From IMG/VR virus record IMGVR_UViG_3300050343_000261: 64,000 nucleotides of DNA; one strand, given 5' to 3'. Each line of letters starts with the position of its first letter. Position 1 is the stretch's first letter. The position numbers were made by a program, and so were the translations under genes. The DNA is from a virus. Below, piece by piece: positions 8,723-27,525 of the stretch. The notes beneath the pieces are model-generated. The model was not told the origin of the DNA and ran no database searches. It saw only the letters and a list, made by a program, of their open reading frames with translations.

Positions 8723-10381
8723 TTAGGAATGGTACTCCCACATGTAAGAGCGATCTCCATACTCATCAGTCTTCCAAATCGTACCATCTGACTCAACAGT
8801 CTCCCCACCCATCTCATCAAATCCGTCGCATACAAAACCGAAAGGTGCCATGTCTTGCTCAATAGCATTCTTCTGTTCTTCATATATTTTCTTACGAACA
8901 TCCTGGTCCGTCATCTCCTTGAAATAATCTTGAGCAACTAACCAGGCAAAGATAACCAGGCACATAGCAAGATCATCATTACAACCTTCCTCTGCCTCAA
9001 ACGACTGCTTTTTCTGGATAAACGTTGTCAATTCTGCAATGATGTTGTAGTCGCAGAAGATTAGTTTGTCATCCTCAACCAGAGTTTTGAGGTTAGAGCA
9101 ACCCACCTTCTTGGTGACCTGACTCATCTTTACACCCAACTGAGTCTTGACACCAGAGAACCCAGAACCAACTTGCTGACCTGCACGCCCACGCATTGCA
9201 ACCATCAACAGGTTTTCATACTCCAAGTCATAGAACAAAATAGATGCCACCTGGTCACCAATGTCATTGACCTCTGCCAGGACATGTGCGTTGTTGTATG
9301 CCCTACCCACTTCCTCAATAATTGATGGGAAGATCATGGGTTTGATTTCATTGTCCCTATAAACACCGACAATTTTATATGGATACTCTGTGATATCAAA
9401 AACACAGAACGTGCTATAGTCTTTGCCTACACCACGTGCAACGTCAACTGTAATAACGTACTCATGTTTTTCACGTGGAGTTTCATATAGAGATAACTTG
9501 CCATTCCTTTTCACTGGGTCTTCAAAGACCAGTGCTTTCAGTTTTGATGCTGCTATCAGAGTATCAACAGATCCTAGGAATTCGCACTCAAACTCAATCT
9601 TGAACTGTTGCTCTGACGTGTTAGCAATGGTTTGCTTTTTCCACTTAGCATCTCTTCCTGGCACTTCAGACCAGTGCACTTCCGTGGGAACATATTCATT
9701 CTTACCACGCTCAGCATCATGCCACATCCTGTAGAAGTGGTTCATGCCATGAGGCGTAGATACAATAATTACTTTGGAAGATTTACCAGATGAGATTGTA
9801 GGATATACCGACGCAAAGAAATCATCTGCCAAGTGGTTTGCCACAAACGCAAACTCGTCCAGGAAGATGATGTTGAAAGACATACCTCGAACAGCAGATG
9901 CTGAGGTAGATGCAGCAATGATCTTAGAACCGTTTTCCAGTTCCATAGATCCTTTGTTCCAAGCTATGATGCCTTGCTGCATCCAGCGCGGCAGGTTTTC
10001 GTACGCCAGTTGTAATCTGCCGAGGAGATCTCTAGCTGTTGCCGCTTTGTTTGCGAGGATTCCGATGTTGACGTTATCATTGAAGATCGCGTAGTGGAGA
10101 AGAAACGATACAACAGTGGTAGACTTTCCAGTCTGCCTAGGCATCTTGCATATATTGAATCTATGCTTATGAAAATTTCTGATAAGTTTCTTTTGAAACT
10201 TATACATGTTGAACGGGACAAGACCTTCGTCCACGTTGACAATTCTTATGTACTTTTCTGTAAAATAAACAGGGTCATTTTTACATCGAACAAATTCGAT
10301 GATATTTTCTTCGGTAAACTCTTGCTTAGTGTTTACCTTTTTTAGATTGGGATTACCAAGATATACGTCACTCCCAGCCAT
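8723..10381 (-). CDS. gp17: Terminase large subunit
   Basis: Walker A MPRQTGKSTT, Walker B IIFLDEFAF, STPHGMNHFY, nuclease DVARG and GCNDDLAM; no intein visible. Confidence 0.99.
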   Translation of the reverse strand: MAGSDVYLGNPNLKKVNTKQEFTEENIIEFVRCKNDPVYFTEKYIRIVNVDEGLVPFNMYKFQKKLIRNFHKHRFNICKMPRQTGKSTTVVSFLLHYAIFNDNVNIGILANKAATARDLLGRLQLAYENLPRWMQQGIIAWNKGSMELENGSKIIAASTSASAVRGMSFNIIFLDEFAFVANHLADDFFASVYPTISSGKSSKVIIVSTPHGMNHFYRMWHDAERGKNEYVPTEVHWSEVPGRDAKWKKQTIANTSEQQFKIEFECEFLGSVDTLIAASKLKALVFEDPVKRNGKLSLYETPREKHEYVITVDVARGVGKDYSTFCVFDITEYPYKIVGVYRDNEIKPMIFPSIIEEVGRAYNNAHVLAEVNDIGDQVASILFYDLEYENLLMVAMRGRAGQQVGSGFSGVKTQLGVKMSQVTKKVGCSNLKTLVEDDKLIFCDYNIIAELTTFIQKKQSFEAEEGCNDDLAMCLVIFAWLVAQDYFKEMTDQDVRKKIYEEQKNAIEQDMAPFGFVCDGFDEMGGETVESDGTIWKTDEYGDRSYMWEYHS

Positions 10382-14869: not shown

Positions 14870-14876
14870 TATTTAG
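14870..14876 (-). promoter_or_regulatory. Late promoter CTAAATA for gp13
   Basis: Minus-strand CTAAATA at the fibre stop, about 20 nt before the gp13 start. Confidence 0.65.
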
Positions 14877-16039
14877 TTACGTCTTACAACGACATCTATC
14901 TCGTCACCTACAGTTGTGCCATTAGTAATTGATACAATAGTATCTCCAAATGACCAATCTGCTGCTCGAAGTAAAACCCCATTTAGATATACTTGAGCGT
15001 TTATGTTGGTAATATTTGAATCGCTAGGAATAAATGTTGTCTGCCCTTCAGTTGCAGTATATTGATCTTCTGAAGTGTCCCCACAGATATCAATTTGATC
15101 CCCAATCGTACAACCAGTTGCAAGAACAATAGTTGTTCCCGTGGTGAAGTCTGTAGTTTTTCGTAACTTTATACCATTCAAAAATATTTTGAAGTTTTTC
15201 TGTGCAGCAACATCACCTGAGATTGGGAATTCTGTTTGACCTTGTGTTGCAGTAAAGGATTCTTGATCGAGAGTGTGCCCGTAATGAACTTGAATTTGAA
15301 CATCATCCCCGACTGTAGCACCTTCTGTCAAGGTAACCGTACTTGTAGATGATGTACTAAAGTCAGTACCTCTACGTTGACGAATACCATTGATATATGC
15401 TTCTACAGTAAGTTGTTTATTTCCATCATTGTGAGCACCAGGTGATGTGAACGCCGTCTGACCTTGAGTGGCAGTTGTGGTTCCAGATGAAATAGATGTG
15501 GCAGAACCAACGCTGACGTTGGTAAGACCAGAACCATCACCAACAAATTCATCAGCATTGATTGTGCCTACAGTGGCAATTCCAGTGACTCGTAGTTGAG
15601 AAACTGTTGCTTCACCAGAGACCTTACCAAAACTACCAATACCAGCATAGAGTTTGCCAGTGTTGGGGTTGTAAGTAAGACCGTTGGTCTTTATCTTTTG
15701 ATATCCAGTTCTATTGTCTAAAAATCCAACGTGGTGCCATTGGTTACCACCGTCAGTTGCAGTATCTACCTTGTTTGCACCGCTGGAAATACCAACGATA
15801 GTATTACTTACACTAAAATTTGTTGCTTCAAGCGTGGTAATCGTAGCGATACCACTAAGAATGTTGCCGGTGCTTATACCAACTTCGCGTACAGTAACAC
15901 CTGCCCCAACACCAGCGGCAATAAAGACTTTGCCGTCCGCTGTGTTGATTGCAAATTCGCCAAGTTCTAGGCTTGTTGGATAGTGTGGGACCTTGCCAGC
16001 AATCGCTGAGCGTTTGACCCTAATATTCGGAGATGACAT
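14873..16039 (-). CDS. Short fibre / virion structural protein
   Basis: N-terminal IRVKRSAIAGKVP..LELGEFAINTADGK fibre-attachment-type domain; three C-terminal TATxGQTxF...[YF][IL]NG repeats. Confidence 0.8.
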   Translation of the reverse strand: MSSPNIRVKRSAIAGKVPHYPTSLELGEFAINTADGKVFIAAGVGAGVTVREVGISTGNILSGIATITTLEATNFSVSNTIVGISSGANKVDTATDGGNQWHHVGFLDNRTGYQKIKTNGLTYNPNTGKLYAGIGSFGKVSGEATVSQLRVTGIATVGTINADEFVGDGSGLTNVSVGSATSISSGTTTATQGQTAFTSPGAHNDGNKQLTVEAYINGIRQRRGTDFSTSSTSTVTLTEGATVGDDVQIQVHYGHTLDQESFTATQGQTEFPISGDVAAQKNFKIFLNGIKLRKTTDFTTGTTIVLATGCTIGDQIDICGDTSEDQYTATEGQTTFIPSDSNITNINAQVYLNGVLLRAADWSFGDTIVSITNGTTVGDEIDVVVRRN

Positions 16040-16141: not shown

Positions 16142-16822
16142 ATGAAGACACTCGTTGTACTAACTGGGCCTCAAGGATCGGGAAACCATCTATGGTCAAA
16201 AATCTTTTCATTGCACGATGATGTCTATGGGTGGAAATCTTTGCTGACCAATTATTGGGAAGCACATAGATTTGCAGAACCTTTTGCAGAATATTGGAGA
16301 GACCCCAATAAATTGCAATCTTTCGATTGGTCTCAGTCGGAATATTACTTTACCTCTATTAGCGTCCCCCTCGGCATCAAAGAAAAAGGGACCCACTGGT
16401 GTCCAAACGTATTGCAGTTTTGCAAGTCTGCCGAAAATATGGGGATCAAAACTAAAATAGTTGTAATTGGTCGTGATCAAAACATACTTCGTAATCAACA
16501 ACAGCGGTTGAGGGGTGAACTAACCACCAAGTATTTCTTGGATCAAATGCCCAAATTCCCCAACCCAACTTTTCTTAGTTACGAACTCTTATATCTTTAC
16601 AAAGAAGAGTATCTAAAACACTTAGACATTGGTATCCCAGTTGCATGGTATGACAAACGTGTAACTGAAATTTTGAAGCGAGATGCTAACGACAAGTATA
16701 TTCAATATGTTGCAGACAATCCTTTGGATGATTGCAATAAAACTGGAATTCCTTCTCCATTAGATCCTTTTGCTGAAGGATCTACAGGACCACAACCAGA
16801 AAAACCATCTAAGTGTTGTTGA
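16142..16822 (+). CDS. P-loop/sulfotransferase-fold hypothetical protein (GPQGSGNH family, copy 1)
   Basis: LVVLTGPQGSGNHLWSKIFSLH and VIGRDQN; paralogue of 21128-21763. Confidence 0.75.
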   Translation: MKTLVVLTGPQGSGNHLWSKIFSLHDDVYGWKSLLTNYWEAHRFAEPFAEYWRDPNKLQSFDWSQSEYYFTSISVPLGIKEKGTHWCPNVLQFCKSAENMGIKTKIVVIGRDQNILRNQQQRLRGELTTKYFLDQMPKFPNPTFLSYELLYLYKEEYLKHLDIGIPVAWYDKRVTEILKRDANDKYIQYVADNPLDDCNKTGIPSPLDPFAEGSTGPQPEKPSKCC

Positions 16823-17953
16823 TCACTTACTTACAACCTCAAATTTAGTAAAAAAATCATCCATTCCATCAAGCAGAAATGTATTATCGAAATCTTTCCA
16901 ATAATATTCACCATCAATTAGTTCACGATTTTCTTCAGGAACAAAATTACCTTCGTGTTCAATTCTTCCTATAGGTAAACTTTGATTTTTCTTGTAGTCT
17001 ATAGGGGTTCCCCACTGCTCAGGAAGACAACCAAATACTTTAGGCCAATAATCATATTGATACTGAAGTATTTTTTTTAGTTTATAATATAAATCATCTG
17101 GCATATCAAATGAATCAGTATTCCATTGATCAATCAAAAGAGTATATCTAATTGCTTTAGATCCTCTATCAGGAGAGTAAGCATTATCATATAAATTTAT
17201 ATCTTTACCAATAAGATTTTCTAATCGACTAAGTTGATTTTTAGTATCGTTCTCCCATATATCTTCCATAACAAAAAATTCAGTTTTACCATATTTTCTA
17301 GTGACATCTATAATATCACTGTAAGGTAAAACTTTTTTTGCATAGAATTCTAAGTAATTTTCTACGGTATGATGTAAACTTTTATCAATTCTAAGGAGAT
17401 CTGCATTGTCCCAATGCCAAACATGTTGTGAAAATAGTCGTCTAACTGGATCTCTAAAAATTCCTACTTGAGTAACATCAAAATGTTCTTGTAGTCTTTG
17501 TATAAACTCTTTGTACAAAGGCAGTCCTACTGTTTTATCGTTTATCGGAAGAATATTTGAGTTTGACCAATCTGCAAGTATCTTGCCCTCATCTGCATGT
17601 TTTTCCCAAATGGATTTATAAAAATTGATATAGTTTTCTATACAAGTATTAGGATCTTCAAGAATATCAAATGCTTTATCTGGCACAAAAATATTTTGAT
17701 CATAATTATCTTCACCATACCTGGCCTGTTTGACACGTGCTAAATGTAATTCAAAAGTTTTCTCCCATCCCCTACGGTCTTTGGCTCCTTTCCCCCAGTT
17801 TTTAGGATCTTTGTAATAATGTTTTTTCCAGATCAATTCAAAATAATGCATCTCTTTTTGAGTACCAAAAAGTAGATGTTCTTTTAGGGAATTGAATAAT
17901 GGAGTTGTTGCTGCCCATCCATAACCAACAAATAGTATAAATTTAGGTTTCAT
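16823..17953 (-). CDS. Sulfotransferase-like protein (family copy 1)
   Basis: VGYGWAATTPL, QKEMHYF, IFRDPVRRLFS, NAYSPDRG...DQW; ATG at 17953 preferred over the TTG at 17965. Confidence 0.75.
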   Translation of the reverse strand: MKPKFILFVGYGWAATTPLFNSLKEHLLFGTQKEMHYFELIWKKHYYKDPKNWGKGAKDRRGWEKTFELHLARVKQARYGEDNYDQNIFVPDKAFDILEDPNTCIENYINFYKSIWEKHADEGKILADWSNSNILPINDKTVGLPLYKEFIQRLQEHFDVTQVGIFRDPVRRLFSQHVWHWDNADLLRIDKSLHHTVENYLEFYAKKVLPYSDIIDVTRKYGKTEFFVMEDIWENDTKNQLSRLENLIGKDINLYDNAYSPDRGSKAIRYTLLIDQWNTDSFDMPDDLYYKLKKILQYQYDYWPKVFGCLPEQWGTPIDYKKNQSLPIGRIEHEGNFVPEENRELIDGEYYWKDFDNTFLLDGMDDFFTKFEVVSK

Positions 17954-17973
17954 TTTTTTATACAATCACTTTA

Positions 17974-19020
17974 CTAGTTATGACAATAATTTTGACCATC
18001 AATCTCTTCATAAAACTCTGGATAAACAAAGTTCTCTTTGTGCTGTAGTCTCCCTATCGGTAAACTTTGATTCTTCTTATAGTCTGCAGGACTGCCCCAA
18101 GTTTCAGGCAATTTGTCATACATTTTTATCCAATCTTCGTACTGAAAACTCATCATTTTTTTGAGTTTATAATATAAATCATCTGGCATATCAAATGAAT
18201 CACTAGTCCATTGGTCTACTAGGTTACTATATCTAATTGCTTTAGATCCTCTATCAGGGCAGTAGGCATTGTCATATAATTCTACTCTATCAACATCAAG
18301 AAGTTTTTGTAGTCGAGCAACTTGGTTTTCAGTATCAGATTCCCATACGTCTTCCATAACAAAAAATTCAGTCTTACCACAAGACATGGCAGTCTTGATA
18401 AGTTTGGCATAAGGAATCTGATGTTCTATGCGATGTTCAAACCAATCTTTTATACTACGTTTACCTATGGGAGCATCTACTAACTCAGCGTTGTCATAAA
18501 GCCAACACTCGTTTGAGAAAAACCTCCTAACAGGATCTCTAAAAATTGCTACTTGAGTAACATCAAAATGTTCATTCAGTTTTGATACAAATTTTTTATA
18601 CCATTCAACACCTTTCTTCCCATGTTGTAGACATTCAGAAGTGGTATTTGTAAAATCTGCCAGTGCTGTCTGGTTGCAACTCTTCTCTTCCCAAAGGCAC
18701 TTGTAAAAATCAATATATCTCTCGATAGTAGGATCATGATGCTCTATGATACTCAATGCTTTTTCTGACACATCGTGCTTCGATATAGCATGAAACTGTA
18801 TCTCACCCTCTCTAAATTTTCTTATTCTTACCTTGAGTTTATCTAAAGATTTTCTCCATAAATGATCATTTGTGAACTTGTAAAAATTCCTTTCAAACAA
18901 CATCTGGGGATAAAACCATTCCTTCTCAATGCCGTAGAGTAAATGTTCTTTGATAGATGCAAACAGTGGAGTTGTTGCTGACCACCCTACTCCAAGAAAC
19001 AAAATAAATTTAGGTTTCAT
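17974..19020 (-). CDS. Sulfotransferase-like protein (copy 2)
   Basis: LGVGWSATTPL, EKEWFY, IFRDPVRRFFS, NAYCPDRG...DQW. Confidence 0.75.
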   Translation of the reverse strand: MKPKFILFLGVGWSATTPLFASIKEHLLYGIEKEWFYPQMLFERNFYKFTNDHLWRKSLDKLKVRIRKFREGEIQFHAISKHDVSEKALSIIEHHDPTIERYIDFYKCLWEEKSCNQTALADFTNTTSECLQHGKKGVEWYKKFVSKLNEHFDVTQVAIFRDPVRRFFSNECWLYDNAELVDAPIGKRSIKDWFEHRIEHQIPYAKLIKTAMSCGKTEFFVMEDVWESDTENQVARLQKLLDVDRVELYDNAYCPDRGSKAIRYSNLVDQWTSDSFDMPDDLYYKLKKMMSFQYEDWIKMYDKLPETWGSPADYKKNQSLPIGRLQHKENFVYPEFYEEIDGQNYCHN

Positions 19021-19053
19021 CCTTTCACAAGCATCATACTAATTTAGGAACGG

Positions 19054-19081
19054 TTGCATTACAATAAATACAGTGTATAAC
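19054..19081 (+). promoter_or_regulatory. Nested sigma70-like (TTGCAT-16-TATAAC) and late-type (AATAAATA, 19063-19070) promoter motifs for the DctP-like gene
   Basis: Both motifs lie in the 77-nt divergent gap. Confidence 0.5.
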
Positions 19082-19097
19082 CATAAGTCAATAAGGC

Positions 19098-20054
19098 ATG
19101 AAAAAAGTACGTTGGGTACATGAACCTATTGAGCTTTTTCGTCGTACTGCTGAGAAGTTTGCTACTGAAATTGAGCGACTTGCCCCTGGGGAGTTTGAAG
19201 TTGAAATTCTGACCCTATCCGAGTTTGCTACACAGTACAACGAAGGCGTAGCAGTTAGCAGGAATGATTTTATTACTCTCATCCGAGAGGGTAAGTTGGA
19301 GATGTGTCAGGTATATACGTCCAAGTTGGCTGAACTCAATTCAGATTTGAGAGTTCTTGATATGCCTTATTTGTTTAGTAGTTATGTTGAGGCAGGTAAC
19401 GCCTTAGCGGGTCAAGTTGGAATTGATCTTTTGAAAGGACTATTCGACGGTGAAGATGCTGTAGTTAGGGGTCTGGGATATACTTTTGCTGGTGGATACA
19501 ATATGATTCCTGCTACTAAAGAAATCGATACAACCGATGATCTGTTAGGGGTTTCCATTCGATGCGACGACAACGAAATTGCTAAAAAAACTTTTGAAGC
19601 AATTGGTGCTACTCCTGTTGCTCTTGAAGTAGAGCAGATCAAACAAGCCGTCACAGATGGCACCGTCGCTGCTGCAGATGCTAACTACACTCAGTTCTTC
19701 GCCAATGAAGGCGATGATGTCATGAAGACTCTCAATGATACACGACATTCTATGAATGTTGCAGCTATTGTTTGTGGCAAAGCGTTTTGGAAGTCTTTGG
19801 ATAAAAGTTCTGGACTTCGTGGCAAAATTGCAGACGCAGCAATTCTTACCGCAGAGGCGGAACAAGAATGGTCTGTTGATGAAATGTTTGACCTTGAGAT
19901 CAAGTGCACGAATGAAGGAATTACCGTCAACAGAATGACTACTGATGAGCGTACTGCATTCATGCAAGCTACTGCTGGATTGTATGATACGATTTCTCTT
20001 CCTGCGGGAGTGGCTGATCGTATTCGCGCCTATGGTACCGATGCAGAAGAGTAA
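19098..20054 (+). CDS. dctP: TRAP transporter substrate-binding protein (DctP family), no signal peptide
   Basis: LIREGKLEMC, RVLDMPYLF, GLGYTFAGGY, DLLGVSIR, GATPVAL, VKYLNDT-like MKTLNDTRHS; starts MKKVRWVHEP with no hydrophobic leader. Confidence 0.8.
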   Translation: MKKVRWVHEPIELFRRTAEKFATEIERLAPGEFEVEILTLSEFATQYNEGVAVSRNDFITLIREGKLEMCQVYTSKLAELNSDLRVLDMPYLFSSYVEAGNALAGQVGIDLLKGLFDGEDAVVRGLGYTFAGGYNMIPATKEIDTTDDLLGVSIRCDDNEIAKKTFEAIGATPVALEVEQIKQAVTDGTVAAADANYTQFFANEGDDVMKTLNDTRHSMNVAAIVCGKAFWKSLDKSSGLRGKIADAAILTAEAEQEWSVDEMFDLEIKCTNEGITVNRMTTDERTAFMQATAGLYDTISLPAGVADRIRAYGTDAEE

Positions 20055-20079
20055 ACTTCTACATAAATTTTGATTTTAT

Positions 20080-20105
20080 AGGCAGGCATAACGCCTGCCT
20101 TTTTT
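20080..20105 (+). terminator. Rho-independent terminator after the DctP-like gene
   Basis: AGGCAGGC-ataac-GCCTGCCT followed by a T-run. Confidence 0.85.
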
Positions 20106-20109
20106 ATGT

Positions 20110-21129
20110 CTAATTTGAGACTCTATCCCAAAAGTAAGTATCAATATATTCAGTGCTGTATAATCCTATGTGATTAGTAAAGTCCACATATAATTTATCA
20201 TCAACTTTACGGTAAGTTCCTTTTTTGATATTTTCCTCACGTATCCCCGTTATGGGCAGTGAGCAATTCCGTTTATAATTTACTGGCACTCCCCATCCTT
20301 CAATATTCCAACCTTCGTAGTGGTGACTCATAATATTTTTATACTCATAATATTGTTCGTCAGTCATATTGAACTGATCTGATGACCATTGATCTTTTTG
20401 ATATTGATATCGGACTGCTTTGTTTCCTCTATCAGGATAATATAAGTTTGGAGCAAACTCAGTCTGTCCAAATAGATCATTCAGCAGTTGTGTTTTTCCT
20501 GCCCATACCTCCTCCATGATTAGAACATGTACAGGACATACGTTTTTTGCATTTTCAATAACTTTATGGTATGGTTGTAAGTCTGCAAATTTTATTTTTG
20601 CTGCAGAATGAATATCACTGTACTCGTTTTTTATATTACCAAGTATCTTCGAGTAATCATTCCATCCATAGTTCAACCAAGACCATGCTCTCCTTACAGG
20701 ATCTCTACATACCATAAGAGCACTGACATCAAATTCTTGACTGAGTGCTTTGAGTAAGCGTTGTGTAAAATCAGCGTCTAGTTGATAGTTACTATTAGAC
20801 CAATCAACTAATACATCTCTACCATACCCTCTATAGTCCCACAGATTTTTGTAATAATCAACATATTTCTGTATAGACCAGTTACTAAAGTCTGGAAAGG
20901 ATGTTACAATTTCCCCAGAGTCTGAACCAAGTCTATGGTACCAGTAGATTTTTTTCTTACACCTAGATAATTTTTCTTCATACTCTGCTGTTTCTATCCG
21001 TTGCGTCATATCTGCTAAGTGATGTTCTTTAGCAACTCCACTCGTGATATGATTACGAACCATCTTGTACAATGGACTAGATGCAGAAAATGCTGTCCCT
21101 AAAAAAAATATAAACTTCGGTTTATTCAT
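20110..21129 (-). CDS. Sulfotransferase-like protein (copy 3)
   Basis: LGTAFSASSPL, AKEHH, CRDPVRRAWS, NLYYPDRG...DQW; start MNKPKF chosen by paralogue alignment. Confidence 0.72.
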   Translation of the reverse strand: MNKPKFIFFLGTAFSASSPLYKMVRNHITSGVAKEHHLADMTQRIETAEYEEKLSRCKKKIYWYHRLGSDSGEIVTSFPDFSNWSIQKYVDYYKNLWDYRGYGRDVLVDWSNSNYQLDADFTQRLLKALSQEFDVSALMVCRDPVRRAWSWLNYGWNDYSKILGNIKNEYSDIHSAAKIKFADLQPYHKVIENAKNVCPVHVLIMEEVWAGKTQLLNDLFGQTEFAPNLYYPDRGNKAVRYQYQKDQWSSDQFNMTDEQYYEYKNIMSHHYEGWNIEGWGVPVNYKRNCSLPITGIREENIKKGTYRKVDDKLYVDFTNHIGLYSTEYIDTYFWDRVSN

Positions 21130-21763
21130 GAAAAGACTTCTTATCACAACTGGACCACAAGGATCAGGCAATCACCTTTTTGCAAGGATATTTAGTTTAC
21201 ACCCAGAAGTTGTAGGGTGGGATTCTCTCAAAGATAATTACTGGGTTCCTAGTGATGAAGAACCTTTTGCAAAATATTGGGTAGACCCGGACCTGCTAGA
21301 ATTTCCTGAAGGAGATTTTTTTCTAGCAAATGTAAGTGTTCCTTTCTTCTATGATGGTGTTAGACAGGTGCCTAAAATTTCGGCAGTTTGTCACCAAGCA
21401 ATGCATCTTGGTTACACACCTGTAGTTGCTATTATTACAAGAGATCAAAATATAAATGCACTTCAACAAGAAAGAGTTGGTGGAGAAGTAACCCTACCGA
21501 TTGCCAAAGGTTACTATAAATCCCTCTTAGAGGATCCATATATTGAAACACATTTCCTATCTCACGAATCTTTTTTCTTGTGGAAGGAAGACTATATCAA
21601 ATACTGTGGGGAGATTCTAAAGTTCCCTGTAACGACCAATGGCATCGACCAGTTTATAACCGGCGATGCCAACGGAAAATATGTAAGTCCCGTCAAAGAC
21701 CATTGGTTAGACGAGACTATTAGAGAAGGTCGTCAGACCTTCAAACAACGGCAAGAGGTGTAG
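21128..21763 (+). CDS. P-loop/sulfotransferase-fold hypothetical protein (GPQGSGNH family, copy 2)
   Basis: LLITTGPQGSGNHLFARIFSLHPEV, IITRDQN; start chosen by alignment with 16142. Confidence 0.75.
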   Translation: MKRLLITTGPQGSGNHLFARIFSLHPEVVGWDSLKDNYWVPSDEEPFAKYWVDPDLLEFPEGDFFLANVSVPFFYDGVRQVPKISAVCHQAMHLGYTPVVAIITRDQNINALQQERVGGEVTLPIAKGYYKSLLEDPYIETHFLSHESFFLWKEDYIKYCGEILKFPVTTNGIDQFITGDANGKYVSPVKDHWLDETIREGRQTFKQRQEV

Positions 21764-22415
21764 CCGTGTTCTGGCGGGAGATCTCCAGAAGATCGGAACG
21801 CATACGCTCAACAAGAGCAAGAACGCGATCCTGAAGTTCCACACTACCTTCAACCAGACGGCTCAGTGAGCGTCCGCCGAGGTTGCTGTGGAAACCTTCA
21901 TCCTTAGCGATGGAGGCGTAACGGGTGGAGATGAACGAATCTTCGACACACTCAGCCATTTCAGACCAGACTGCTTCTGCACGACCTTCAGCAACGAGCT
22001 GATAGGCAGCGAGGGCAGCAGGATCTTGAGCAGCTTCGTACTTCTCAAGCAGGGAAGCACCCTTTGCTTGAGGCTTACCTGCTTCAGCAGCGAAAGCAGC
22101 AGCTACGTCCAGTTCTTCGCCAGTGATATGCTCGATGACTTCCTTGACCATGCGGAAGTGCTTTGCTTCGTCCAATGCCTGCTTGCTAAGAAGCTCCAGG
22201 TCGCGAACGTCGGTGCTAGGGTCGGCAGATGCTACCTGACCAGCAATCGCATACATGTTTTGTGCTTCGTTGACCATGCGGCCACGGAAGTGCTCGACGA
22301 GGTACTCCTCGCTAGGGGCAGAAGCGAAGAAACGACGGACGTTACTACGGGAAGCCTCAAACAGCTCCCTATTACCTTCCTTGATTTTCTTTACGAAATC
22401 GGTTCCAGAAAGCAT
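21741..22415 (-). CDS. Ferritin-like di-iron carboxylate protein
   Basis: Two ExxH motifs (DEAKHF, DEGFHS) plus upstream Glu in MVNEA and VAEG; ATG at 22415 has an AAGGA RBS. Confidence 0.85.
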   Translation of the reverse strand: MLSGTDFVKKIKEGNRELFEASRSNVRRFFASAPSEEYLVEHFRGRMVNEAQNMYAIAGQVASADPSTDVRDLELLSKQALDEAKHFRMVKEVIEHITGEELDVAAAFAAEAGKPQAKGASLLEKYEAAQDPAALAAYQLVAEGRAEAVWSEMAECVEDSFISTRYASIAKDEGFHSNLGGRSLSRLVEGSVELQDRVLALVERMRSDLLEISRQNTATPLAVV

Positions 22416-22434
22416 TGTGGATTTCCTTTCAACG

Positions 22435-22962
22435 TTAGTATTTAGCATAATGAAAAAAATACCTTAGATGTCCTTGAGAAGTAGTTTCTTCTTTTAGTGA
22501 TATCAAATTGTATTGGTATTCTTCAGTAATTTTATTTATCTTTTCAATGTTCCAATCATACCATTGTATCTGATCAATATTAGTATTTGCCCAATCATGA
22601 GCAATACCTGGATTGACCCTAAAAATAATATCTTTTAGAAACAATTTATCTAACATACTAATCTGTTTATCAATATCTTCTTCAGTTCCGAAGTTGATTG
22701 ATCCTAGACAGAGAACAACATCAGCAGGTGGAAATTCATACTCATAGTATTCCTCCAGAGACATATGTAAGTGTGCCTCTTTGTTATATGGATCAATACC
22801 AACTAACCCCGGTATACGGTCCTTGAGGCGGTTGTAACCACATCCTACATCTAATACACTAGATGGGGATAACTTATTGATATAATCGACTACAGAGTCT
22901 CCTGAGTGCTTCAGTTGACCAACATAGTCATCCTTCCAAATGCCGCCAAAATATGACTCCAT
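22435..22962 (-). CDS. Class I SAM-dependent methyltransferase
   Basis: Motif I VLDVGCG, GIDP, ADVVLCLGSINF. Confidence 0.85.
   Translation of the reverse strand: MESYFGGIWKDDYVGQLKHSGDSVVDYINKLSPSSVLDVGCGYNRLKDRIPGLVGIDPYNKEAHLHMSLEEYYEYEFPPADVVLCLGSINFGTEEDIDKQISMLDKLFLKDIIFRVNPGIAHDWANTNIDQIQWYDWNIEKINKITEEYQYNLISLKEETTSQGHLRYFFHYAKY
22439..22445 (-). promoter_or_regulatory. Late promoter CTAAATA for the ferritin-like gene
   Basis: Motif about 24 nt upstream of the ATG at 22415, inside the methyltransferase 3' end. Confidence 0.65.
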
Positions 22963-23183
22963 TATTTTTTAGTTGTTTTACCAACCCCAGTTTTAGGTTC
23001 AGGGAACTGTCCTGCATCTCCAGGCGTTGGAGGACGAAGTTTATGAATTTCCTCTGCCATCAATTGCATCTGCTGACCCATCAGAGAAATACGTGCTTCA
23101 TATGCAACTGATCTAGCAGTTTCATCCGACAGTCTTTTCACATAAATTTGCAAAAGATTTTGCAGTTCTTGTTCTTTTTCCAT
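22962..23183 (-). CDS. Small hypothetical coiled-coil protein
   Basis: MEKEQELQNLL...; TAATG coupling to the methyltransferase. Confidence 0.65.
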   Translation of the reverse strand: MEKEQELQNLLQIYVKRLSDETARSVAYEARISLMGQQMQLMAEEIHKLRPPTPGDAGQFPEPKTGVGKTTKK

Positions 23184-23209
23184 AAAAAAAGGGGGAGTCA
23201 ACTCCCCCT
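23184..23209 (-). terminator. Rho-independent terminator after the long fibre
   Basis: AGGGGGAG-ttga-CTCCCCCT followed by a T-run on the minus strand. Confidence 0.85.
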
Positions 23210-23232: not shown

Positions 23233-26200
23233 TTAGAACGTACCACCGTCGATGGTGATGTTCTCAAGAGAGCGAGTCGTGCCGGAGCAGGAGATCACTT
23301 GAGACTGACCAGCACAGTCATTCACGTAGAGTGAACCAACTTCCAGACCAGCGTAGGTGATGCTACCCAAGACGCCTGAACTCTCACTTGCGTCGCTCGC
23401 GAGGGCGAAACGTCCGGCAGAATCATCCCAGAAGACTGCTGCCTTCTTAGCGGATCCGCTGTAGTAGTTCATCACGATACCAACGTCTTTGTTGGTATCA
23501 GCACTCAGGTTACCACCGTCTACTTTCTGCAGTTCAAGCAGAACGTCTTCGATTGTGGTGTTGGTTGTGTTGATCTGGGTAGTAGAACCTTCAACAACCA
23601 GATCACCGGTAACGGTCATGTTGGTGCTTACGGTTACTGCACCAGTGACTGCGAGGGTAGAACCGTCGTAGGTCAGACCACCGTTGTCTTGGAGAGCACC
23701 AGATCCACCCGCGAGCACGACACGACCAGAGGTCAAGTCAGAGACTGTAGCGGAGGACATGACGGTTTCGCCGCCAGTTATGGATGCACCACCGGAACCG
23801 CTGATAGCACCACCGACTCCCAGGGTTGATCCGTCCCAGGTGAAGTTGCTGTCATCTCCCAGAGAACCATTTGAACCCGCGATCACGACACGACCGTTGG
23901 TCAGATCGGAGACTGTTGCGGAAGAAAGGACGGTCTCACCACCAGAGATGTCTGCACCGCCGTTTCCGTCGATTGCACCGCCGACTGTCAATCCAGCACC
24001 CACTTTTGCGGTTGTGGAGTCCAGGTAGGTGTTGGTGGCAATGCCCGTGACGTTGATCGCGGCAAATGTTGCACCAGATCCACCGCCGAGCACGTAGGAC
24101 TTGACGCGAGACATTGCTGTCTTTTTGTTAGTGCCGCCAGCACCGTCGTCAACAATCAGCAGGTCAGCGTCAACCAGGTCAGCACCGATATCCGAACCGC
24201 CATCAATGTCCAGAGAAGTTAGAGGAACAGTGCCTGCACCCAAACCACTACCACTGCTAACCGTACCGGTGACATCACCAGTAAGATCACCAACGAAACC
24301 GCCAGTAGCAGTTGCAACACCAGATACCGTTAGGTTACCGGCAGTCTTGAGTGATGCAATGTTTACAATGTCACCCAGTGACTTCCAGGCAACAAACTCA
24401 AGTTCGTCACCAACGGTAGCACCAGAAGCGATAGTGACGGTCTGACCATCAACGCCTTGGGTGTAGTCAGTTCCGGTGATCAGGCGAACACCGTTGTGAT
24501 AGACATCAACGAATCCTTCTTGGAAACCAGAGGCAACGGTGAAAGAAGTTTGACCTTGAGTAGCAACAATAGTGTTGCTTGAAGTGAAGGTAGTAGCAGC
24601 AACACCCGACAGGGTGACAGTTGCAGTGCCATCTTCAACCTTGTATGCTTCAACGCCAGTACCGTTGAACTTGAATCCGGTAACGATGCCGGTGTGACCA
24701 GAAGCACTGGATACACCAACCAGAGGAAGCAGACCAGCAGCAGCGTTGCGAAGGTTGGTTGCTGTAATTACACCACTGGAAACTACGTTACGTAGTGAAG
24801 CGTCGCGAGCACTCAGTTCTTGAGTAACCGTTAGGTTAGTGCTGACAGTTGCAGCACCCGTGACAGCAAAGGTTGATCCGTTGAAGGTAAGTGCACTGTT
24901 GTCTTCCAGTTCGCCATCAGTGCCAGCAAGGACAATGCGACCAGAGGTCAGGTCAGAGACCTTAGCAGAGTTGGCGACAAAATCACCAGCGACATCCATG
25001 CCGCCGTTTGCATCAACAGCACCAGAGACGGTGATGCCGCCAGTGACGCCGACAGTAGAACCATCAAAGGTCAGGTTGCCGCTGTCTTCGATCTCACCGT
25101 CAGTACCAGCAAGAACGACGCGACCAGAAGTTAGGTCAGAAACTTTAGCGGAGTTTGCAACCAAACCACTAGCGATGTTAGCACCGCCGTCTACGTCAAG
25201 AGCACCCGTGACAGTCGCACCAGCACCAACCTTCAGGGTTGTAGCATCAGCGAACGTAACGGTAGAAATACCGGAGACGTTGATTGCAGCGAAGTTTGCA
25301 CCGGCACCACCGCCGAGCATGTAATCCTTGATCTCAGTAGCAGTGATTTTGCGGTTCGTTCCGCCTGCACCGTCGTCAACCAGGAAGAGATCAGCGTCAA
25401 CCAGGTCAGCACCGATTGCAGTTGCACCATCCAAGTTGATGGAAGCAACGTCAACGCTAACGCTAGAAGCAAGTGCAGCAGCACTCAGAATCTCAGTGTT
25501 GGCGACCTTGAGGACTTTGCCAGAAGCGAGGTTCAGGTTTTCAGAAGAACCGAAGTTGTCACCCAGTGCTTCAAAGTGGAAGGTCTTGTCACCATCACCT
25601 GAATCAACCGTGAAACCACCACCGTTGGCAGCAGCATCGTTGGCAGCACCCTTAGCAACTTCGATTGCCAAGTCGGCAACAGAAACCGTGGTAGAGTCAA
25701 CTTGAGTCGTGGTGCCCTTGACTTGCAGGTCACCTAGAATGAACACCGTACCGCTGTTGTCGTTGAGAGCAGCAGGGTCAAGGGTGATCGAAGAAGGACC
25801 AGTAATCGTGTCACTGGTAACAATGATTGCAGAACCTTCAGCACCCGTTGCAAACGAGGTAGCAGAAGCAATACCAGTAGCGTTGATGCCACCAGTAACA
25901 CGGAGATCGTTGTCACCGTAGGTAAGACCAGAGTCATCACCCAGTTCACCACCAGCACCTGCCAGAACCACCCGACCATCAGTCAGGTCTTGGACAGCAG
26001 CAGAAGCAAGAGTTGCTGCGGTAGTAGCAGTGACGTTTGCAGCTTGGACAGTGCCTGAAGCGGTGACATCACCGGTCACTCCCAGATCAGAACCGTCGAA
26101 GGTCAGGTTGCCGCTGTCTTCAACTGCACCAGCAGTGCCAGCAATCAGAACCCGGTTATCGGTCAGGTCACTAATGGTGGCAGAAGCAAGAGTTGCCTCT

Positions 26201-27525
26201 CCAGAAACTCCTAGATTTGTGGATACAGTTGCAGCACCCGTTACAGCAAGAGTTGAACCGTTGAAGGTCAGGTTGCCACTGTCTTCCAGTTCTCCAGAAG
26301 TACCAGCAAGAACGACACGACCGTCAGTCAGGTCAGAAACAATTGCGGAGTTTGCAGTCAGTCCACCAGTTACGGTCAGACCAGAAGCAATGTTTGCACC
26401 ACCATCAACATCAAGAGCACCGGTAACAGTTGCACCAGCAGACACATTGATGTCAACTGTTTGTAACTGGACGGTGGTCGTAATGCCAGTTGCCTGGAGG
26501 TTTACGAAGTTAGCACCAGCACCACCACCAAGGACATAATCCTTGACGCGGGACATTGCCGTCTTACGGTTGGTGCCACCAGCACCGTCATCTACAACCA
26601 GAAGATCAGCATCAACCAGGTCAGCACCGATGTCTGTAGCACCATCAATGTCGATAGCAGAAACATCAACCTTATTGGCAGATGTGATCTGATTTAGTTT
26701 GCTATCAGCAATCGAACCTGCTAACTGAGTATTGGTGATCGTTCCAACCAAGTTGGAAGTCAGATAACCAGTTGCATCTTGTAGGTTGAAAGCAGGAGTA
26801 GCATCAGCGGCACCCAGTGCCAATGAAATGCCACCAAAAGAGATTGTGCTATTAGTGAGTTGACTGTTGTCAACCGTACCAGTCAGGTTGCTAGTAGCAA
26901 GGTCGCCGTCGAAGGAAGCAGCAGTAACGACACCAGTAAAGGTACCAGTGCTGCTCTTGACAAAGGCAATAGAACCAATGCCAGAAACATTGATGGCAGC
27001 AAACGTAGCGCCAGCACCGCCACCCAGGACGTATGACTTGACGCGAGACATTGCTGTCTTACGGTTCGTTCCCCCACCACCATCATCAACGATGAGGAGG
27101 TCGCCGTCTGCTAAGTCAGCACCAATATCGGTACCACCGTCGATGTCCAACACCGAGAGAGGGGTATCAATATCAATTTCTGTAGACCAGGACATATTGC
27201 CTGATCCGTCTACCTTCATGTAACCGCCTGCTACAGCAGCGGCAGGGAGGATATACTCTTCACTTGAAGTTAGTGCGGCAGGAGCACCTAAAGAGACGTA
27301 GTGTTGTCCGTTGTTCGTACCCTCAACCATCCGGACAGCACTACCAGATGTAGTGCCCTCACGGGTCCAGTAACGAGCAGATCCAACAACTTTATTGTTA
27401 CTTGTATTGGAGTCAATACCCACAAAAAGGTCATAACTGTCCGTCACCCAACCGGGTTCGCCAGCCTGCAGACCGGGGAGAGCGGCGAGACTACCGCGCT
27501 TGAACTGTAAAACAGGTGCAGCCAT
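23233..27525 (-). CDS. Long repeat-built tail fibre
   Basis: N-terminal LQFKRG...GEPGWVTD attachment domain; Gly/Thr/Asp-rich repeats; C-terminal IDGGTF. Confidence 0.88.
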   Translation of the reverse strand: MAAPVLQFKRGSLAALPGLQAGEPGWVTDSYDLFVGIDSNTSNNKVVGSARYWTREGTTSGSAVRMVEGTNNGQHYVSLGAPAALTSSEEYILPAAAVAGGYMKVDGSGNMSWSTEIDIDTPLSVLDIDGGTDIGADLADGDLLIVDDGGGGTNRKTAMSRVKSYVLGGGAGATFAAINVSGIGSIAFVKSSTGTFTGVVTAASFDGDLATSNLTGTVDNSQLTNSTISFGGISLALGAADATPAFNLQDATGYLTSNLVGTITNTQLAGSIADSKLNQITSANKVDVSAIDIDGATDIGADLVDADLLVVDDGAGGTNRKTAMSRVKDYVLGGGAGANFVNLQATGITTTVQLQTVDINVSAGATVTGALDVDGGANIASGLTVTGGLTANSAIVSDLTDGRVVLAGTSGELEDSGNLTFNGSTLAVTGAATVSTNLGVSGEATLASATISDLTDNRVLIAGTAGAVEDSGNLTFDGSDLGVTGDVTASGTVQAANVTATTAATLASAAVQDLTDGRVVLAGAGGELGDDSGLTYGDNDLRVTGGINATGIASATSFATGAEGSAIIVTSDTITGPSSITLDPAALNDNSGTVFILGDLQVKGTTTQVDSTTVSVADLAIEVAKGAANDAAANGGGFTVDSGDGDKTFHFEALGDNFGSSENLNLASGKVLKVANTEILSAAALASSVSVDVASINLDGATAIGADLVDADLFLVDDGAGGTNRKITATEIKDYMLGGGAGANFAAINVSGISTVTFADATTLKVGAGATVTGALDVDGGANIASGLVANSAKVSDLTSGRVVLAGTDGEIEDSGNLTFDGSTVGVTGGITVSGAVDANGGMDVAGDFVANSAKVSDLTSGRIVLAGTDGELEDNSALTFNGSTFAVTGAATVSTNLTVTQELSARDASLRNVVSSGVITATNLRNAAAGLLPLVGVSSASGHTGIVTGFKFNGTGVEAYKVEDGTATVTLSGVAATTFTSSNTIVATQGQTSFTVASGFQEGFVDVYHNGVRLITGTDYTQGVDGQTVTIASGATVGDELEFVAWKSLGDIVNIASLKTAGNLTVSGVATATGGFVGDLTGDVTGTVSSGSGLGAGTVPLTSLDIDGGSDIGADLVDADLLIVDDGAGGTNKKTAMSRVKSYVLGGGSGATFAAINVTGIATNTYLDSTTAKVGAGLTVGGAIDGNGGADISGGETVLSSATVSDLTNGRVVIAGSNGSLGDDSNFTWDGSTLGVGGAISGSGGASITGGETVMSSATVSDLTSGRVVLAGGSGALQDNGGLTYDGSTLAVTGAVTVSTNMTVTGDLVVEGSTTQINTTNTTIEDVLLELQKVDGGNLSADTNKDVGIVMNYYSGSAKKAAVFWDDSAGRFALASDASESSGVLGSITYAGLEVGSLYVNDCAGQSQVISCSGTTRSLENITIDGGTF
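23620..27150 (-). repeat. Intragenic protein repeats of the long fibre
   Basis: 4 copies of DIDGxxDIGADLxDxDLLxVDDGxGGTNRKT..SRVKxYVLGGG.GA.F and 7 copies of SDLTxGRVVLAG..G.LED.G.LTF.GS.L.VTG; synonymous sites diverged. Confidence 0.9.

What the first reader, a model, noticed from the sequence alone, without database searches (positions are those of the whole stretch)
16142..23183. Candidate novel system 1: enzyme cassette wedged between two tail-fibre genes
Nine genes in alternating orientation break an otherwise all-minus late region: two GPQGSGNH P-loop proteins, three atypical sulfotransferase-like proteins, a signal-less DctP ligand-binding protein, a ferritin-like di-iron protein, a SAM methyltransferase and a small protein. 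The DctP and ferritin-like genes have late-promoter motifs, and terminators insulate the unit. A ligand binder, an oxidase, a methyltransferase and group transferases together look like a small-molecule or glycan tailoring pathway acting late, possibly on fibres or the host surface. The function is inference.
Basis: partly seen in the sequence, partly recalled or inferred. Interest (0 to 1): 0.8.

Follow-up and report, generated by a model that had tools for sequence, protein, structure and literature searches.

The report
Cyanophage enzyme cassette between fibre genes
An uncultured marine cyanobacterial virus carries, among its tail genes, a widely conserved set of four or five enzyme-like genes of unknown product. 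In this virus, extra sulfotransferase-like genes and an orphan binding-protein gene have been inserted into that set.

Summary
The nine genes are real and lie as described. They are not one nine-gene system.

**Conserved core.** It has five genes:
- g1 and g6, two compact proteins with the GPQGSGNH loop. The g6 model has a sulfotransferase fold, not a kinase fold; g1 is its 37%-identical paralogue.
- g7, a ferritin-like di-iron oxygenase.
- g8, a small methyltransferase-like protein.
- g9, a 73-residue helical protein.

The core keeps this order between neck gene gp13 and a large fibre-like gene in about 70 marine viral contigs. The g6+g7 pair recurs in other phage lineages and on one archaeal-binned contig. 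There the gene order differs and a cupin and a class-I amidotransferase accompany the pair. This supports a functional link.

**Variable insert.** In 52 of 72 loci g1 and g6 are adjacent. This phage has the largest insert, 4.3 kb. It holds three sulfotransferase-family paralogues, whose loop lysine is replaced by an aromatic residue, and a leaderless DctP. DctP is a widespread phage gene, but only 3 of 77 DctP loci hold the cassette.

**Other points.**
- g6 and g7 have no match in 50,697 deposited phage genomes.
- The substrate and product are unknown. My best guess is a late oxidation, methylation and group-transfer pathway on a small anionic metabolite or glycan.
- The scan has found this cassette before on other DNA.

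The parts
14873..16039 (-). Left flank: 388-aa fibre-like structural gene
   Evidence: Its N-terminal motif resembles that of the 1430-aa gene, and it shares internal repeats with that gene. Weak PHROG hit to a virion structural protein, E 1.6e-4. CTAAATA lies upstream.
16142..16822 (+). g1: compact sulfotransferase-fold protein A (GPQGSGNH loop); core gene
   Evidence: 37% identical to g6. In 72 loci it lies upstream of g6 on the same strand. It is a member of alignment A4, which gave the sulfotransferase-fold model.
16823..17953 (-). g2: long sulfotransferase-family paralogue; variable insert
   Evidence: 50% identical to g3. RDPVRRxxS motif present. Family profile A8 matches solved sulfotransferases at E 6e-4 to 2e-3.
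17974..19020 (-). g3: long sulfotransferase-family paralogue; variable insert
   Evidence: Atlas feature score 0.96 to viral Sulfotransfer_1 clusters.
19098..20054 (+). g4: leaderless DctP-family solute-binding protein; variable insert
   Evidence: Pfam DctP E 9e-32. NCBIfam TRAP_S1 scores 99 bits against a cut-off of 50. All phage homologues start MKKVRWV... with no signal peptide. R155 aligns with the family's ligand-binding Arg. No DctM in the complete twin genome.
20080..20100 (+). Terminator-like hairpin between the convergent genes DctP and g5
   Evidence: Stem of 8 pairs, 6 of them G-C, followed by a T-run.
20110..21129 (-). g5: long sulfotransferase-family paralogue; variable insert
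   Evidence: About 30% identical to g2 and g3. Its start codon overlaps that of g6 in the sequence CATG at 21127-21130. CTAAATA at 21189-21195.
21128..21763 (+). g6: compact sulfotransferase-fold protein B (GPQGSGNH loop); core gene
   Evidence: Model pLDDT 89. 49 of the 50 Foldseek hits listed are PAPS sulfotransferases or close kin; the exception is RapZ. VIA-align Z 11.3 to TPST2, with kinases at 9.1 or lower. 984 homologues in metagenomes. No match in deposited phages.
21741..22415 (-). g7: ferritin-like di-iron oxygenase; core gene
   Evidence: Invariant residues E61, E94, H97, E154, E184, H187. Model pLDDT 88. Z 16-17 to CADD, HrmI, UndA and ADO-like proteins. Wide profile matches aldehyde decarbonylase at 4e-7, R2lox and PaaA. 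GC 0.535 against 0.31-0.43 for the other eight genes. CTAAATA at 22439-22445.
22435..22962 (-). g8: small class-I SAM-methyltransferase-like protein; core gene
   Evidence: LDVGCG and GIDP motifs are conserved. Profile hits to solved methyltransferases are weak, E 0.05-0.3. A distant homologue hits Methyltransf_25 at E 1e-3.
22962..23183 (-). g9: 73-aa helical protein with a Pro/Gly/Lys-rich tail; usually present with the core
   Evidence: Conserved N-terminal helix. It abuts the g8 start. Found in many loci.
23190..23209 (-). Terminator-like hairpin after the 1430-aa gene
   Evidence: Stem of 8 pairs, 6 of them G-C, followed by a T-run.
23233..27525 (-). Right flank: 1430-aa fibre-like protein
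   Evidence: Weak Mtd_N hit at the N-terminus, E 8e-4. Keeps this position in related contigs.

Best explanation
The region is a composite accessory locus of an uncultured T4-like cyanophage.

**Core.** g1, g6, g7, g8 and g9 most likely act as one late-expressed pathway.
- The di-iron protein g7 uses O2 to oxidise, probably hydroxylate, an acceptor.
- g8 methylates it.
- g1 and g6 bind an adenosine-3'-phosphate-type nucleotide such as PAPS and transfer a group to it, or present it.
- The acceptor is unknown. I think a small anionic metabolite or a glycan is more likely than a protein.

**Insert.** The slot between g1 and g6 is a hot spot for insertions. In this phage it holds three extra sulfotransferase-family genes and an orphan cytoplasmic DctP binder. 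These genes are not fixed members of the pathway.

**Shown:** gene content, the predicted folds of g6 and g7, the family matches, the motifs and the co-conservation.
**Inferred:** all chemistry, the timing of expression and the target.
For: **Fixed synteny of the core**
- About 70 IMG/VR loci share the order gp13, fibre-like gene, g1, g6, g7, g8, g9, fibre.
- g7 is adjacent to g6 in 46 of 51 loci and g8 is present in 49 of 51.
- g1 and g6 are 400 bp or less apart in 52 of 72 loci. Only 6 loci have an insert over 1 kb.

**The pair recurs in other orders and contexts**
- L083 and L086: g7, GATase (Peptidase C26), cupin, g6, with a methyltransferase nearby, beside PhoH or ThyX.
- L088: cupin, g6, g7, GATase.

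**Constraint and expression**
- g7 is the most constrained gene: median 87% identity, against 76% for gp13.
- g7 has GC3 0.51, against 0.19-0.35 for the other eight genes.
- g7 has a CTAAATA box 24 nt upstream.

**Families**
- g6 fold.
- g7.
- Long paralogues.
- DctP.

**Host.** A 97%-identical complete genome carries psbA and psbD, so the host is a cyanobacterium.
Against: - No enzyme activity, ligand or product is known for any member.
- Both sulfotransferase-like families lack the catalytic Lys/Arg of the 5'-phosphosulfate loop. g1/g6 have Gly there and the long paralogues have Trp, Phe or Tyr. Canonical PAPS sulfotransfer is therefore doubtful.
- g1/g6 have no sequence-level match to any sulfotransferase family. 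The assignment rests on a predicted fold and on language-model features.
- No PAPS-supply gene is in the complete twin genome.
- The methyltransferase call rests on motifs and weak hits.
- Late timing rests on a 7-base motif.
- Fixed synteny within one clade can reflect common descent rather than function.
Confidence: 0.55

Rival explanations
1. The enzymes modify the phage's own fibre proteins, or a glycan on them, after translation. A residue is hydroxylated, then methylated or sulfated. This changes how the virion adsorbs or what hosts it reaches.
For: - In about 70 loci the core lies between two fibre-like genes and downstream of the large one.
- g9 and g8 follow the fibre gene directly.
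- The best structural matches of g6 are tyrosylprotein sulfotransferases, Z 11.3 and 11.2.
- Iyer et al. 2010 (PMC2938197) predicted bacterial operons that combine hydroxylases, methyltransferases and sulfotransferases with tail-collar or collagen-like substrates.
- Three more paralogues of the long family lie elsewhere in the window. An unchecked first-reader note places them in a glycan-tailoring-like cluster.
Against: - In L083, L086 and L088 the same g6+g7 pair lies with PhoH or ThyX, or at the end of a contig that otherwise holds archaeal housekeeping genes. In all three it is joined by a cupin and an amidotransferase, which are typical small-molecule enzymes.
- The margin of tyrosylprotein sulfotransferases over carbohydrate sulfotransferases is about 1.5 Z units, which is small.
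- There are no virion data.
Confidence: 0.2
2. There is no shared pathway. The locus is a hypervariable slot in which unrelated accessory genes accumulate, and the conserved order reflects only common descent.
For: - The slot is variable, with inserts from 0 to 4.4 kb.
- DctP and the long paralogues do move independently.
- GC content is heterogeneous, 0.31 to 0.535.
- The cultured relative S-T4 has only three small genes at this position.
Against: - g6 and g7 stay together across at least three different gene orders and genome contexts.
- g7 is under stronger constraint than a neck protein.
Confidence: 0.15
3. g7 is not a pathway enzyme. It is an abundant late iron-binding or oxidative-stress protein, like rubrerythrin or Dps. 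The lysine-less sulfotransferase-fold proteins are non-catalytic binders.
For: - g7 has the highest GC and GC3 of the genes compared, slightly above the 726-aa gene upstream of TerL, which I take to be the tail sheath (0.535/0.51 against 0.48/0.47), and its own promoter-like box.
- This suggests stoichiometric rather than catalytic amounts.
- The catalytic Lys/Arg is missing in both sulfotransferase-like families.
- Dps and bacterioferritin appear among the structural matches at Z 12-13.
Against: - The best sequence and structure matches are oxygenases: ADO-like proteins, PaaA, R2lox, sMMO, HrmI and UndA.
- g7 is paired with cupin, amidotransferase and methyltransferase genes elsewhere.
Confidence: 0.07
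4. The core modifies tRNA or DNA.
For: - Two distant members of the g7 family hit MiaE_2 at E 4e-4.
- g8 has faint CmoB hits at E 0.01.
- g6 also resembles Kti12 and PSTK at Z about 9.
Against: All of these hits are weak and below family cut-offs. The locus is not near replication or nucleotide genes in this clade. Sulfotransferases rank above the tRNA-related kinases.
Confidence: 0.03

Closest known systems
PAPS-dependent sulfotransferases (Sulfotransfer_3 family, heparan-sulfate 3-O-sulfotransferases, tyrosylprotein sulfotransferases, the sulfotransferase domain of Synechococcus olefin synthase)
   Same: The long paralogues keep the strand followed by RDPVRRxxS, which is the 3'-phosphate-binding motif, and an N-terminal Ser/Thr-rich loop. 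They match solved sulfotransferases by profile, and one paralogue matches Pfam Sulfotransfer_3. The g6 model has the fold, with an invariant Arg at the end of the equivalent strand; g1 is its paralogue.
   Different: Both families lack the catalytic Lys/Arg of the 5'-phosphosulfate loop. g1 and g6 are shorter, about 210 aa, replace the motif Ser with Gln, and have no sequence-level match. The donor and acceptor are unknown.
Ferritin-like di-iron oxygenases (cyanobacterial aldehyde-deformylating oxygenase relatives, PaaA, R2-like ligand-binding oxidase, DUF455) and heme-oxygenase-like di-iron enzymes (CADD, HrmI, UndA, BesC)
   Same: Two E...ExxH ligand sets, a seven-helix bundle and profile matches down to E 4e-7.
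   Different: g7 reaches no Pfam family's cut-off: its only hit is a weak, sub-threshold one to PaaA_PaaC. The family is small, 98 clusters among 1.84 billion representatives. It is almost confined to marine viral contigs. No reductase or partner subunit was identified.
Predicted bacterial operons of hydroxylase, methyltransferase and sulfotransferase with tail-collar or collagen-like substrates (Iyer, Abhiman, de Souza, Aravind 2010, PMC2938197)
   Same: An oxidising enzyme, a methyltransferase and sulfotransferases encoded next to phage-fibre-like proteins.
   Different: Those operons use 2-oxoglutarate/Fe dioxygenases, canonical sulfotransferases and often PAPS synthetase. This locus uses a di-iron enzyme and lysine-less sulfotransferase folds, and has no PAPS supply gene.
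TRAP-transporter solute-binding proteins (DctP, SiaP, isethionate-binding IseP)
   Same: Full-length DctP domain with the ligand-binding Arg.
   Different: It has no signal peptide and no DctQ/DctM partner (for DctM). It belongs to a phage-borne leaderless subfamily with at least 146 viral copies.

Membership tests
Sulfotransferase superfamily (long paralogues g2, g3, g5) | Sequence or profile similarity to known sulfotransferases | tested here: met
   Profile A8 against solved structures: 3rnl at E 6e-4 and 3-OST-3 and 3-OST-5 at about 2e-3. The top six hits are all sulfotransferases. The window paralogue at 61581-62591 hits Sulfotransfer_3 at E 1.1e-5 with 26.3 bits, just under the cut-off of 27.
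Sulfotransferase superfamily (long paralogues g2, g3, g5) | 3'-phosphate-binding motif: Arg at the strand end and Ser eight residues later | tested here: met
   R161 and S169 are invariant in 19-20 sequences. They align to RDPVTRAIS of 3-OST-3.
Sulfotransferase superfamily (long paralogues g2, g3, g5) | Catalytic Lys/Arg in the 5'-phosphosulfate-binding loop | tested here: not met
   The position holds Trp, Phe or Tyr in all members (GxGWSATT). It aligns to the Lys of GAAKCGTS in 3rnl.
Sulfotransferase superfamily (compact proteins g1, g6) | Sulfotransferase fold | tested here: met
   The model has pLDDT 89. 49 of the 50 Foldseek hits listed are PAPS sulfotransferases or close kin, the best at E 2.4e-4; the exception is RapZ. 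VIA-align gives Z 11.3, rmsd 3.5 over 165 aligned residues, to TPST2. P-loop kinases score Z 9.1 or lower. This is a predicted structure only.
Sulfotransferase superfamily (compact proteins g1, g6) | Sequence-level match to a sulfotransferase family | tested here: not met
   None of the 30 members has a Pfam sulfotransferase hit at E 1 or lower. The profile has no hit among solved structures. Comparison with the long family by hhalign gives probability 1%.
Sulfotransferase superfamily (compact proteins g1, g6) | Catalytic Lys/Arg in the nucleotide loop, and the Arg...Ser 3'-phosphate motif | tested here: not met
   The loop is G-P-Q-G-S-G-N-H with Gly at the Lys/Arg position. It is invariant. 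R105 at the strand end is invariant, but the Ser position holds Q113.
Ferritin-like di-iron carboxylate oxygenases (g7) | Two E...ExxH ligand sets | tested here: met
   E61, E94, H97, E154, E184 and H187 are invariant in A3. The equivalent residues are 90-100% conserved in the wide alignment A6.
Ferritin-like di-iron carboxylate oxygenases (g7) | Helical-bundle fold and profile similarity | tested here: met
   pLDDT 88. Z 17.4 to CADD and TenA, 16.0 to an ADO-like protein and 14.5 to PaaAC. A6 matches 5uwz at E 4.4e-7, R2lox at 8.7e-6 and PaaA at 1.8e-5. DUF455 is hit by 10 of 22 distant members.
Cyanobacterial aldehyde-deformylating oxygenase proper (g7) | Match to the family model above its threshold | tested here: not met
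   Pfam lists only a weak PaaA_PaaC hit for g7, E 0.005 and below the cut-off. No ADO family is hit. The similarity is at superfamily level only.
Di-iron enzyme (g7) | Binds two iron ions and activates O2 | not testable with these tools
   This needs metal analysis and spectroscopy.
TRAP solute-binding protein, DctP family (g4) | DctP domain above the curated cut-off | tested here: met
   Pfam gives 110.9 bits against a cut-off of 23.4. NF037995 gives 99 bits against 50.
TRAP solute-binding protein, DctP family (g4) | Export signal and DctQ/DctM membrane partners | tested here: not met
   All phage homologues have a leaderless N-terminus. DctM was not found in the complete 192-kb twin genome. 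DctQ was not searched.
Class-I SAM methyltransferase (g8) | Motif I (xDxGxGxG) and an acidic residue at the end of strand 2 | tested here: met
   LDVGCG is invariant, and the D in GIDP is nearly invariant (90% or more of sequences).
Class-I SAM methyltransferase (g8) | Significant profile match to known methyltransferases | tested here: inconclusive
   The best real hits have E 0.05-0.3: PEAMT, TehB, an rRNA methylase and CFA synthase. There is no Pfam hit for g8. The distant homologue in L083 hits Methyltransf_25 at E 1e-3, below the cut-off.

The most novel reading that the evidence does not exclude
The g6+g7 pair, a lysine-less sulfotransferase-fold protein and a di-iron oxygenase, is the nucleus of an undescribed pathway. 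It is shared by abundant ocean cyanophages, other marine T4-like phages and possibly an archaeon. The pathway makes or alters a metabolite during late infection. The sulfotransferase fold would do something other than canonical sulfation, for example binding a CoA- or PAP-linked substrate for the oxygenase.
Probability: 0.25. Interest if true: 0.8.

Novelty: new variant of a known kind. Interest (0 to 1): 0.6.

Why it matters
- T4-like cyanophages are among the most abundant viruses in the sea, and their auxiliary genes reshape host metabolism.
- This module is common in metagenomes: 564 viral stretches and 984 protein clusters for g6.
- It is absent from all 50,697 deposited phage genomes, has no family names, and includes what looks like a highly expressed, strongly constrained oxygenase.
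- Finding its substrate would add a new auxiliary pathway to marine phage biology, or a new kind of virion modification.
- It would also give a function to sulfotransferase folds that lack the usual catalytic lysine.
- The leaderless DctP subfamily is a separate, widespread orphan binding protein that is worth its own study.

Tried and rejected
- **Megablast of the region** against deposited phages found no match.
I obtained the contexts of metagenomic homologues through the search for related loci instead.
- **hhalign of the compact family against the long family** aligned only the strand-RD stretch, at probability 1%. I do not claim that the two families are related by sequence.
- **First g7 profile against solved structures.** The top hits were phycocyanin beta chains at E 0.02. 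I rejected them as Ala-rich helix noise, because the wider profile gave di-iron enzymes.
- **APS-kinase lead.**
  - The gene after g6 in L083 hits APS_kinase at E 7.6e-5.
  - Its C-terminal half matches NMN adenylyltransferase-type HxGH nucleotidyltransferases, so it may be a NadR-like NAD salvage enzyme.
  - The complete twin genome has no APS kinase.
  - I do not use this as support for PAPS.
- **Exact T4 late box TATAAATA** does not occur in the region.
- **Sigma-70-like sites** are fewer than chance: 20 against 29 expected.
- **GMC_oxred_N hits of g1/g6 members**, E 0.011 or higher, I take as noise from the glycine-rich loop.
- **Archaeal occurrence.**
  - Only 1 of 201 Nitrosopumilaceae genomes searched has g7.
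  - On that contig the module lies at the contig end, with GC 0.40 against 0.26-0.34 for the rest.
  - It may be an island or an assembly chimera. I use it only as a third gene order.
- **Complex prediction of g7 with g6** gave no answer, score 0.00. This is not evidence either way.

Full report
**Setting.**
- The window is part of a T4-like myovirus.
  - The large terminase (8723-10381, minus strand) is 75-79% identical to those of Synechococcus phages such as S-T4.
  - gp15, gp14 and gp13 homologues precede the region.
- A complete 192-kb IMG/VR genome whose cassette and flanking proteins are mostly 88-99% identical to the window's (g5 only 59%) carries psbA and psbD. The phage is therefore a cyanophage.
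- No deposited phage genome matches the region at the DNA level.
- tblastn of g6 and of g7 finds nothing in 50,697 phage records.
- The cultured relative S-T4 has only three small genes between gp13 and its giant fibre-like gene.

**Observation.** Nine ORFs in the order + - - + - + - - - fill 16142-23201, between a 388-aa and a 1430-aa fibre-like gene.
- Homologue alignments refine several starts: g5 at 21129, g6 at 21128, g7 at 22415 and g9 at 23183.
- The g5 and g6 start codons overlap back to back in the sequence CATG.
- g6 and g7 converge with a 23-nt overlap.
- CTAAATA occurs 14 times against 8.6 expected, and 13 of the 14 are on the strand of the late genes. Copies lie 24 nt before g7 and 60 nt before g5, and before gp13 and both fibre-like genes.
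- ATAAATA lies 28 nt before DctP.
- Two good terminator-like hairpins exist. One follows the 1430-aa gene and one lies between DctP and g5. The second is inside the unit, not at its edge.

**Compact proteins g1 and g6.**
- Neither has a family hit by sequence.
- An AlphaFold model of g6 built on 30 sequences has pLDDT 89.
- 49 of its 50 listed Foldseek matches are PAPS sulfotransferases or close kin; the exception is RapZ.
- An independent aligner puts tyrosylprotein sulfotransferases first at Z 11.3. The olefin-synthase sulfotransferase domain follows at 10.8 and NDST at 9.8. P-loop kinases score 9.1 or lower.
- Language-model features agree weakly.
- The loop G-P-Q-G-S-G-N-H is invariant and has Gly where sulfotransferases have the catalytic Lys/Arg.
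- An invariant Arg (R105) sits at the end of the strand where the 3'-phosphate Arg is expected. Gln replaces the partner Ser.

**Long paralogues g2, g3 and g5.**
- They belong to a family with six copies in this window.
- An enlarged profile matches solved sulfotransferases at E 6e-4 to 2e-3.
- One window copy hits Pfam Sulfotransfer_3 at E 1.1e-5.
- RDPVRRxxS is invariant. The loop Lys is replaced by Trp, Phe or Tyr.

**Di-iron protein g7.**
- The model has pLDDT 88.
- It matches heme-oxygenase-like and ferritin-like di-iron enzymes at Z 14-17.
- A profile that includes distant relatives matches an aldehyde-decarbonylase relative at E 4e-7, R2lox and PaaA.
- Ten of 22 distant members hit DUF455.
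- The six ligands are invariant.
- The family is small: 98 clusters among 1.84 billion representatives.

**Methyltransferase-like g8 and DctP.**
- g8 has methyltransferase motifs but only weak hits.
- DctP is a secure family call.
- It has no leader in any phage copy.
- DctM is absent from the complete twin genome.

**Co-conservation.**
- Scanning IMG/VR with the GPQGSGNH family gave 564 stretches, of which 80 loci were kept.
- About 70 loci share the order gp13, fibre-like gene, g1, g6, g7, g8, usually g9, then the large fibre-like gene.
- Of 51 loci with room downstream of g6, 46 have g7 within 300 bp and 49 have g8.
- In 72 loci g1 precedes g6. The gap is 400 bp or less in 52 loci, 400-1000 bp in 14, and over 1 kb in 6. 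The window type has the largest gap, 4.4 kb.
- The nine genes are therefore a conserved core plus a lineage-specific insert.
- g7 is the most conserved gene: median 87% identity, against 76% for gp13, 67-69% for g1 and g6, and 52% for g8.
- g7 also has the highest GC3, 0.51 against 0.19-0.35 for the other eight genes of the cassette. This agrees with earlier notes that it looks highly expressed.

**Beyond the clade.**
- Three contigs of other T4-like phages carry the order g7, class-I amidotransferase (Peptidase C26), cupin, g6.
  - A methyltransferase lies nearby.
  - The neighbours are PhoH or ThyX rather than fibre genes.
- A contig binned to Nitrosopumilaceae carries cupin, g6, g7 and amidotransferase next to archaeal housekeeping genes.
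  - That stretch is compositionally foreign and lies at the contig end.
  - Only 1 of 201 genomes of the family has it.
  - I count it only as a third gene order.
- The persistence of the g6+g7 pair through rearrangement is the best evidence here for a functional link.
- Its company of cupin and amidotransferase points to small-molecule chemistry.

**DctP fails the co-conservation test.**
- The leaderless subfamily has at least 146 viral copies.
- Only 3 of 77 loci with 7-kb flanks, all of the window type, hold any cassette gene.
- Elsewhere DctP lies near a gp41-type helicase, MazG, a nuclease or the neck genes.
- One distant contig, L085, does put a DctP next to g6, together with a signal-bearing TctC binding protein. 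The association may therefore recur, but it is not the rule.

**Mechanism.** All chemistry here is inferred.
- I think the core is most likely a late pathway.
- g7 would oxidise an acceptor and g8 would methylate it.
- g1 and g6 would use an adenosine-3'-phosphate nucleotide to transfer a group or to hold a nucleotide-linked substrate.
- The missing catalytic Lys/Arg makes canonical sulfation uncertain.
- The rivals are fibre modification, no shared function, an abundant iron or stress protein, and nucleic-acid modification.

**Novelty.**
- I found no paper describing this cassette.
- The nearest precedent is the predicted hydroxylase, methyltransferase and sulfotransferase operons with tail-collar substrates of Iyer et al. 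2010.
- The scan has noted the same cassette on other genomes, and follow-up agents reached similar conclusions.
  - the split into a core and an insert;
  - the failure of DctP to co-occur with the cassette;
  - the g6+g7 pair with cupin and amidotransferase in other contexts;
  - significant family placement of g7 and of the long paralogues.

Noticed in passing
window 55733-56623 (-), 56811-57782 (+), 61581-62591 (+): Three more paralogues of the long sulfotransferase-like family, 25-30% identical to g2, g3 and g5. This gives six copies in 64 kb. The last one hits Pfam Sulfotransfer_3 at E 1.1e-5. A first-reader note places them in a second tailoring-like cluster.
   Followed up: partly
L094-L169 (IMG/VR contigs): A leaderless DctP subfamily, with N-terminus MK[KH][VI][RK]WV..HEPI, is widespread in marine T4-like viral contigs: at least 146 stretches. 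Some contigs carry two tandem copies. It usually lies near a gp41-type helicase, MazG, a staphylococcal-type nuclease or the neck genes, with no TRAP membrane genes seen.
   Followed up: partly
L085 3663-4643 (+): A phage contig encodes a TctC-family (tripartite tricarboxylate) binding protein with a clear signal peptide. It lies a few genes from a g6 homologue and a leaderless DctP.
   Followed up: no
L083 10655-11509 (+): A 284-aa fusion of a P-loop kinase (APS_kinase hit, E 7.6e-5) with an HxGH nucleotidyltransferase half (NMN adenylyltransferase-like, E 1e-3), directly after the g6 homologue. It could be a small PAPS-synthase-like or a NadR-like enzyme.
   Followed up: partly
L088 1-2732: A four-gene block of cupin, g6-like, g7-like and amidotransferase, with GC 0.40. 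It lies at the end of a Nitrosopumilaceae-binned contig whose other genes (CCA-adding enzyme, RIO kinase, GINS, glutamine synthetase, thermosome) have GC 0.26-0.34. It is either a transferred island or an assembly chimera.
   Followed up: partly
window 21127-21130 and 21741-21763: The divergent genes g5 and g6 share overlapping start codons (CATG), so each gene's promoter must lie inside the other gene. The convergent genes g6 and g7 overlap by 23 nt at their 3' ends, and related contigs keep this arrangement.
   Followed up: partly
window 16142-16822: g1 ends in a Pro-rich tail that closes with Lys-Cys-Cys. g6 lacks this tail.
   Followed up: no
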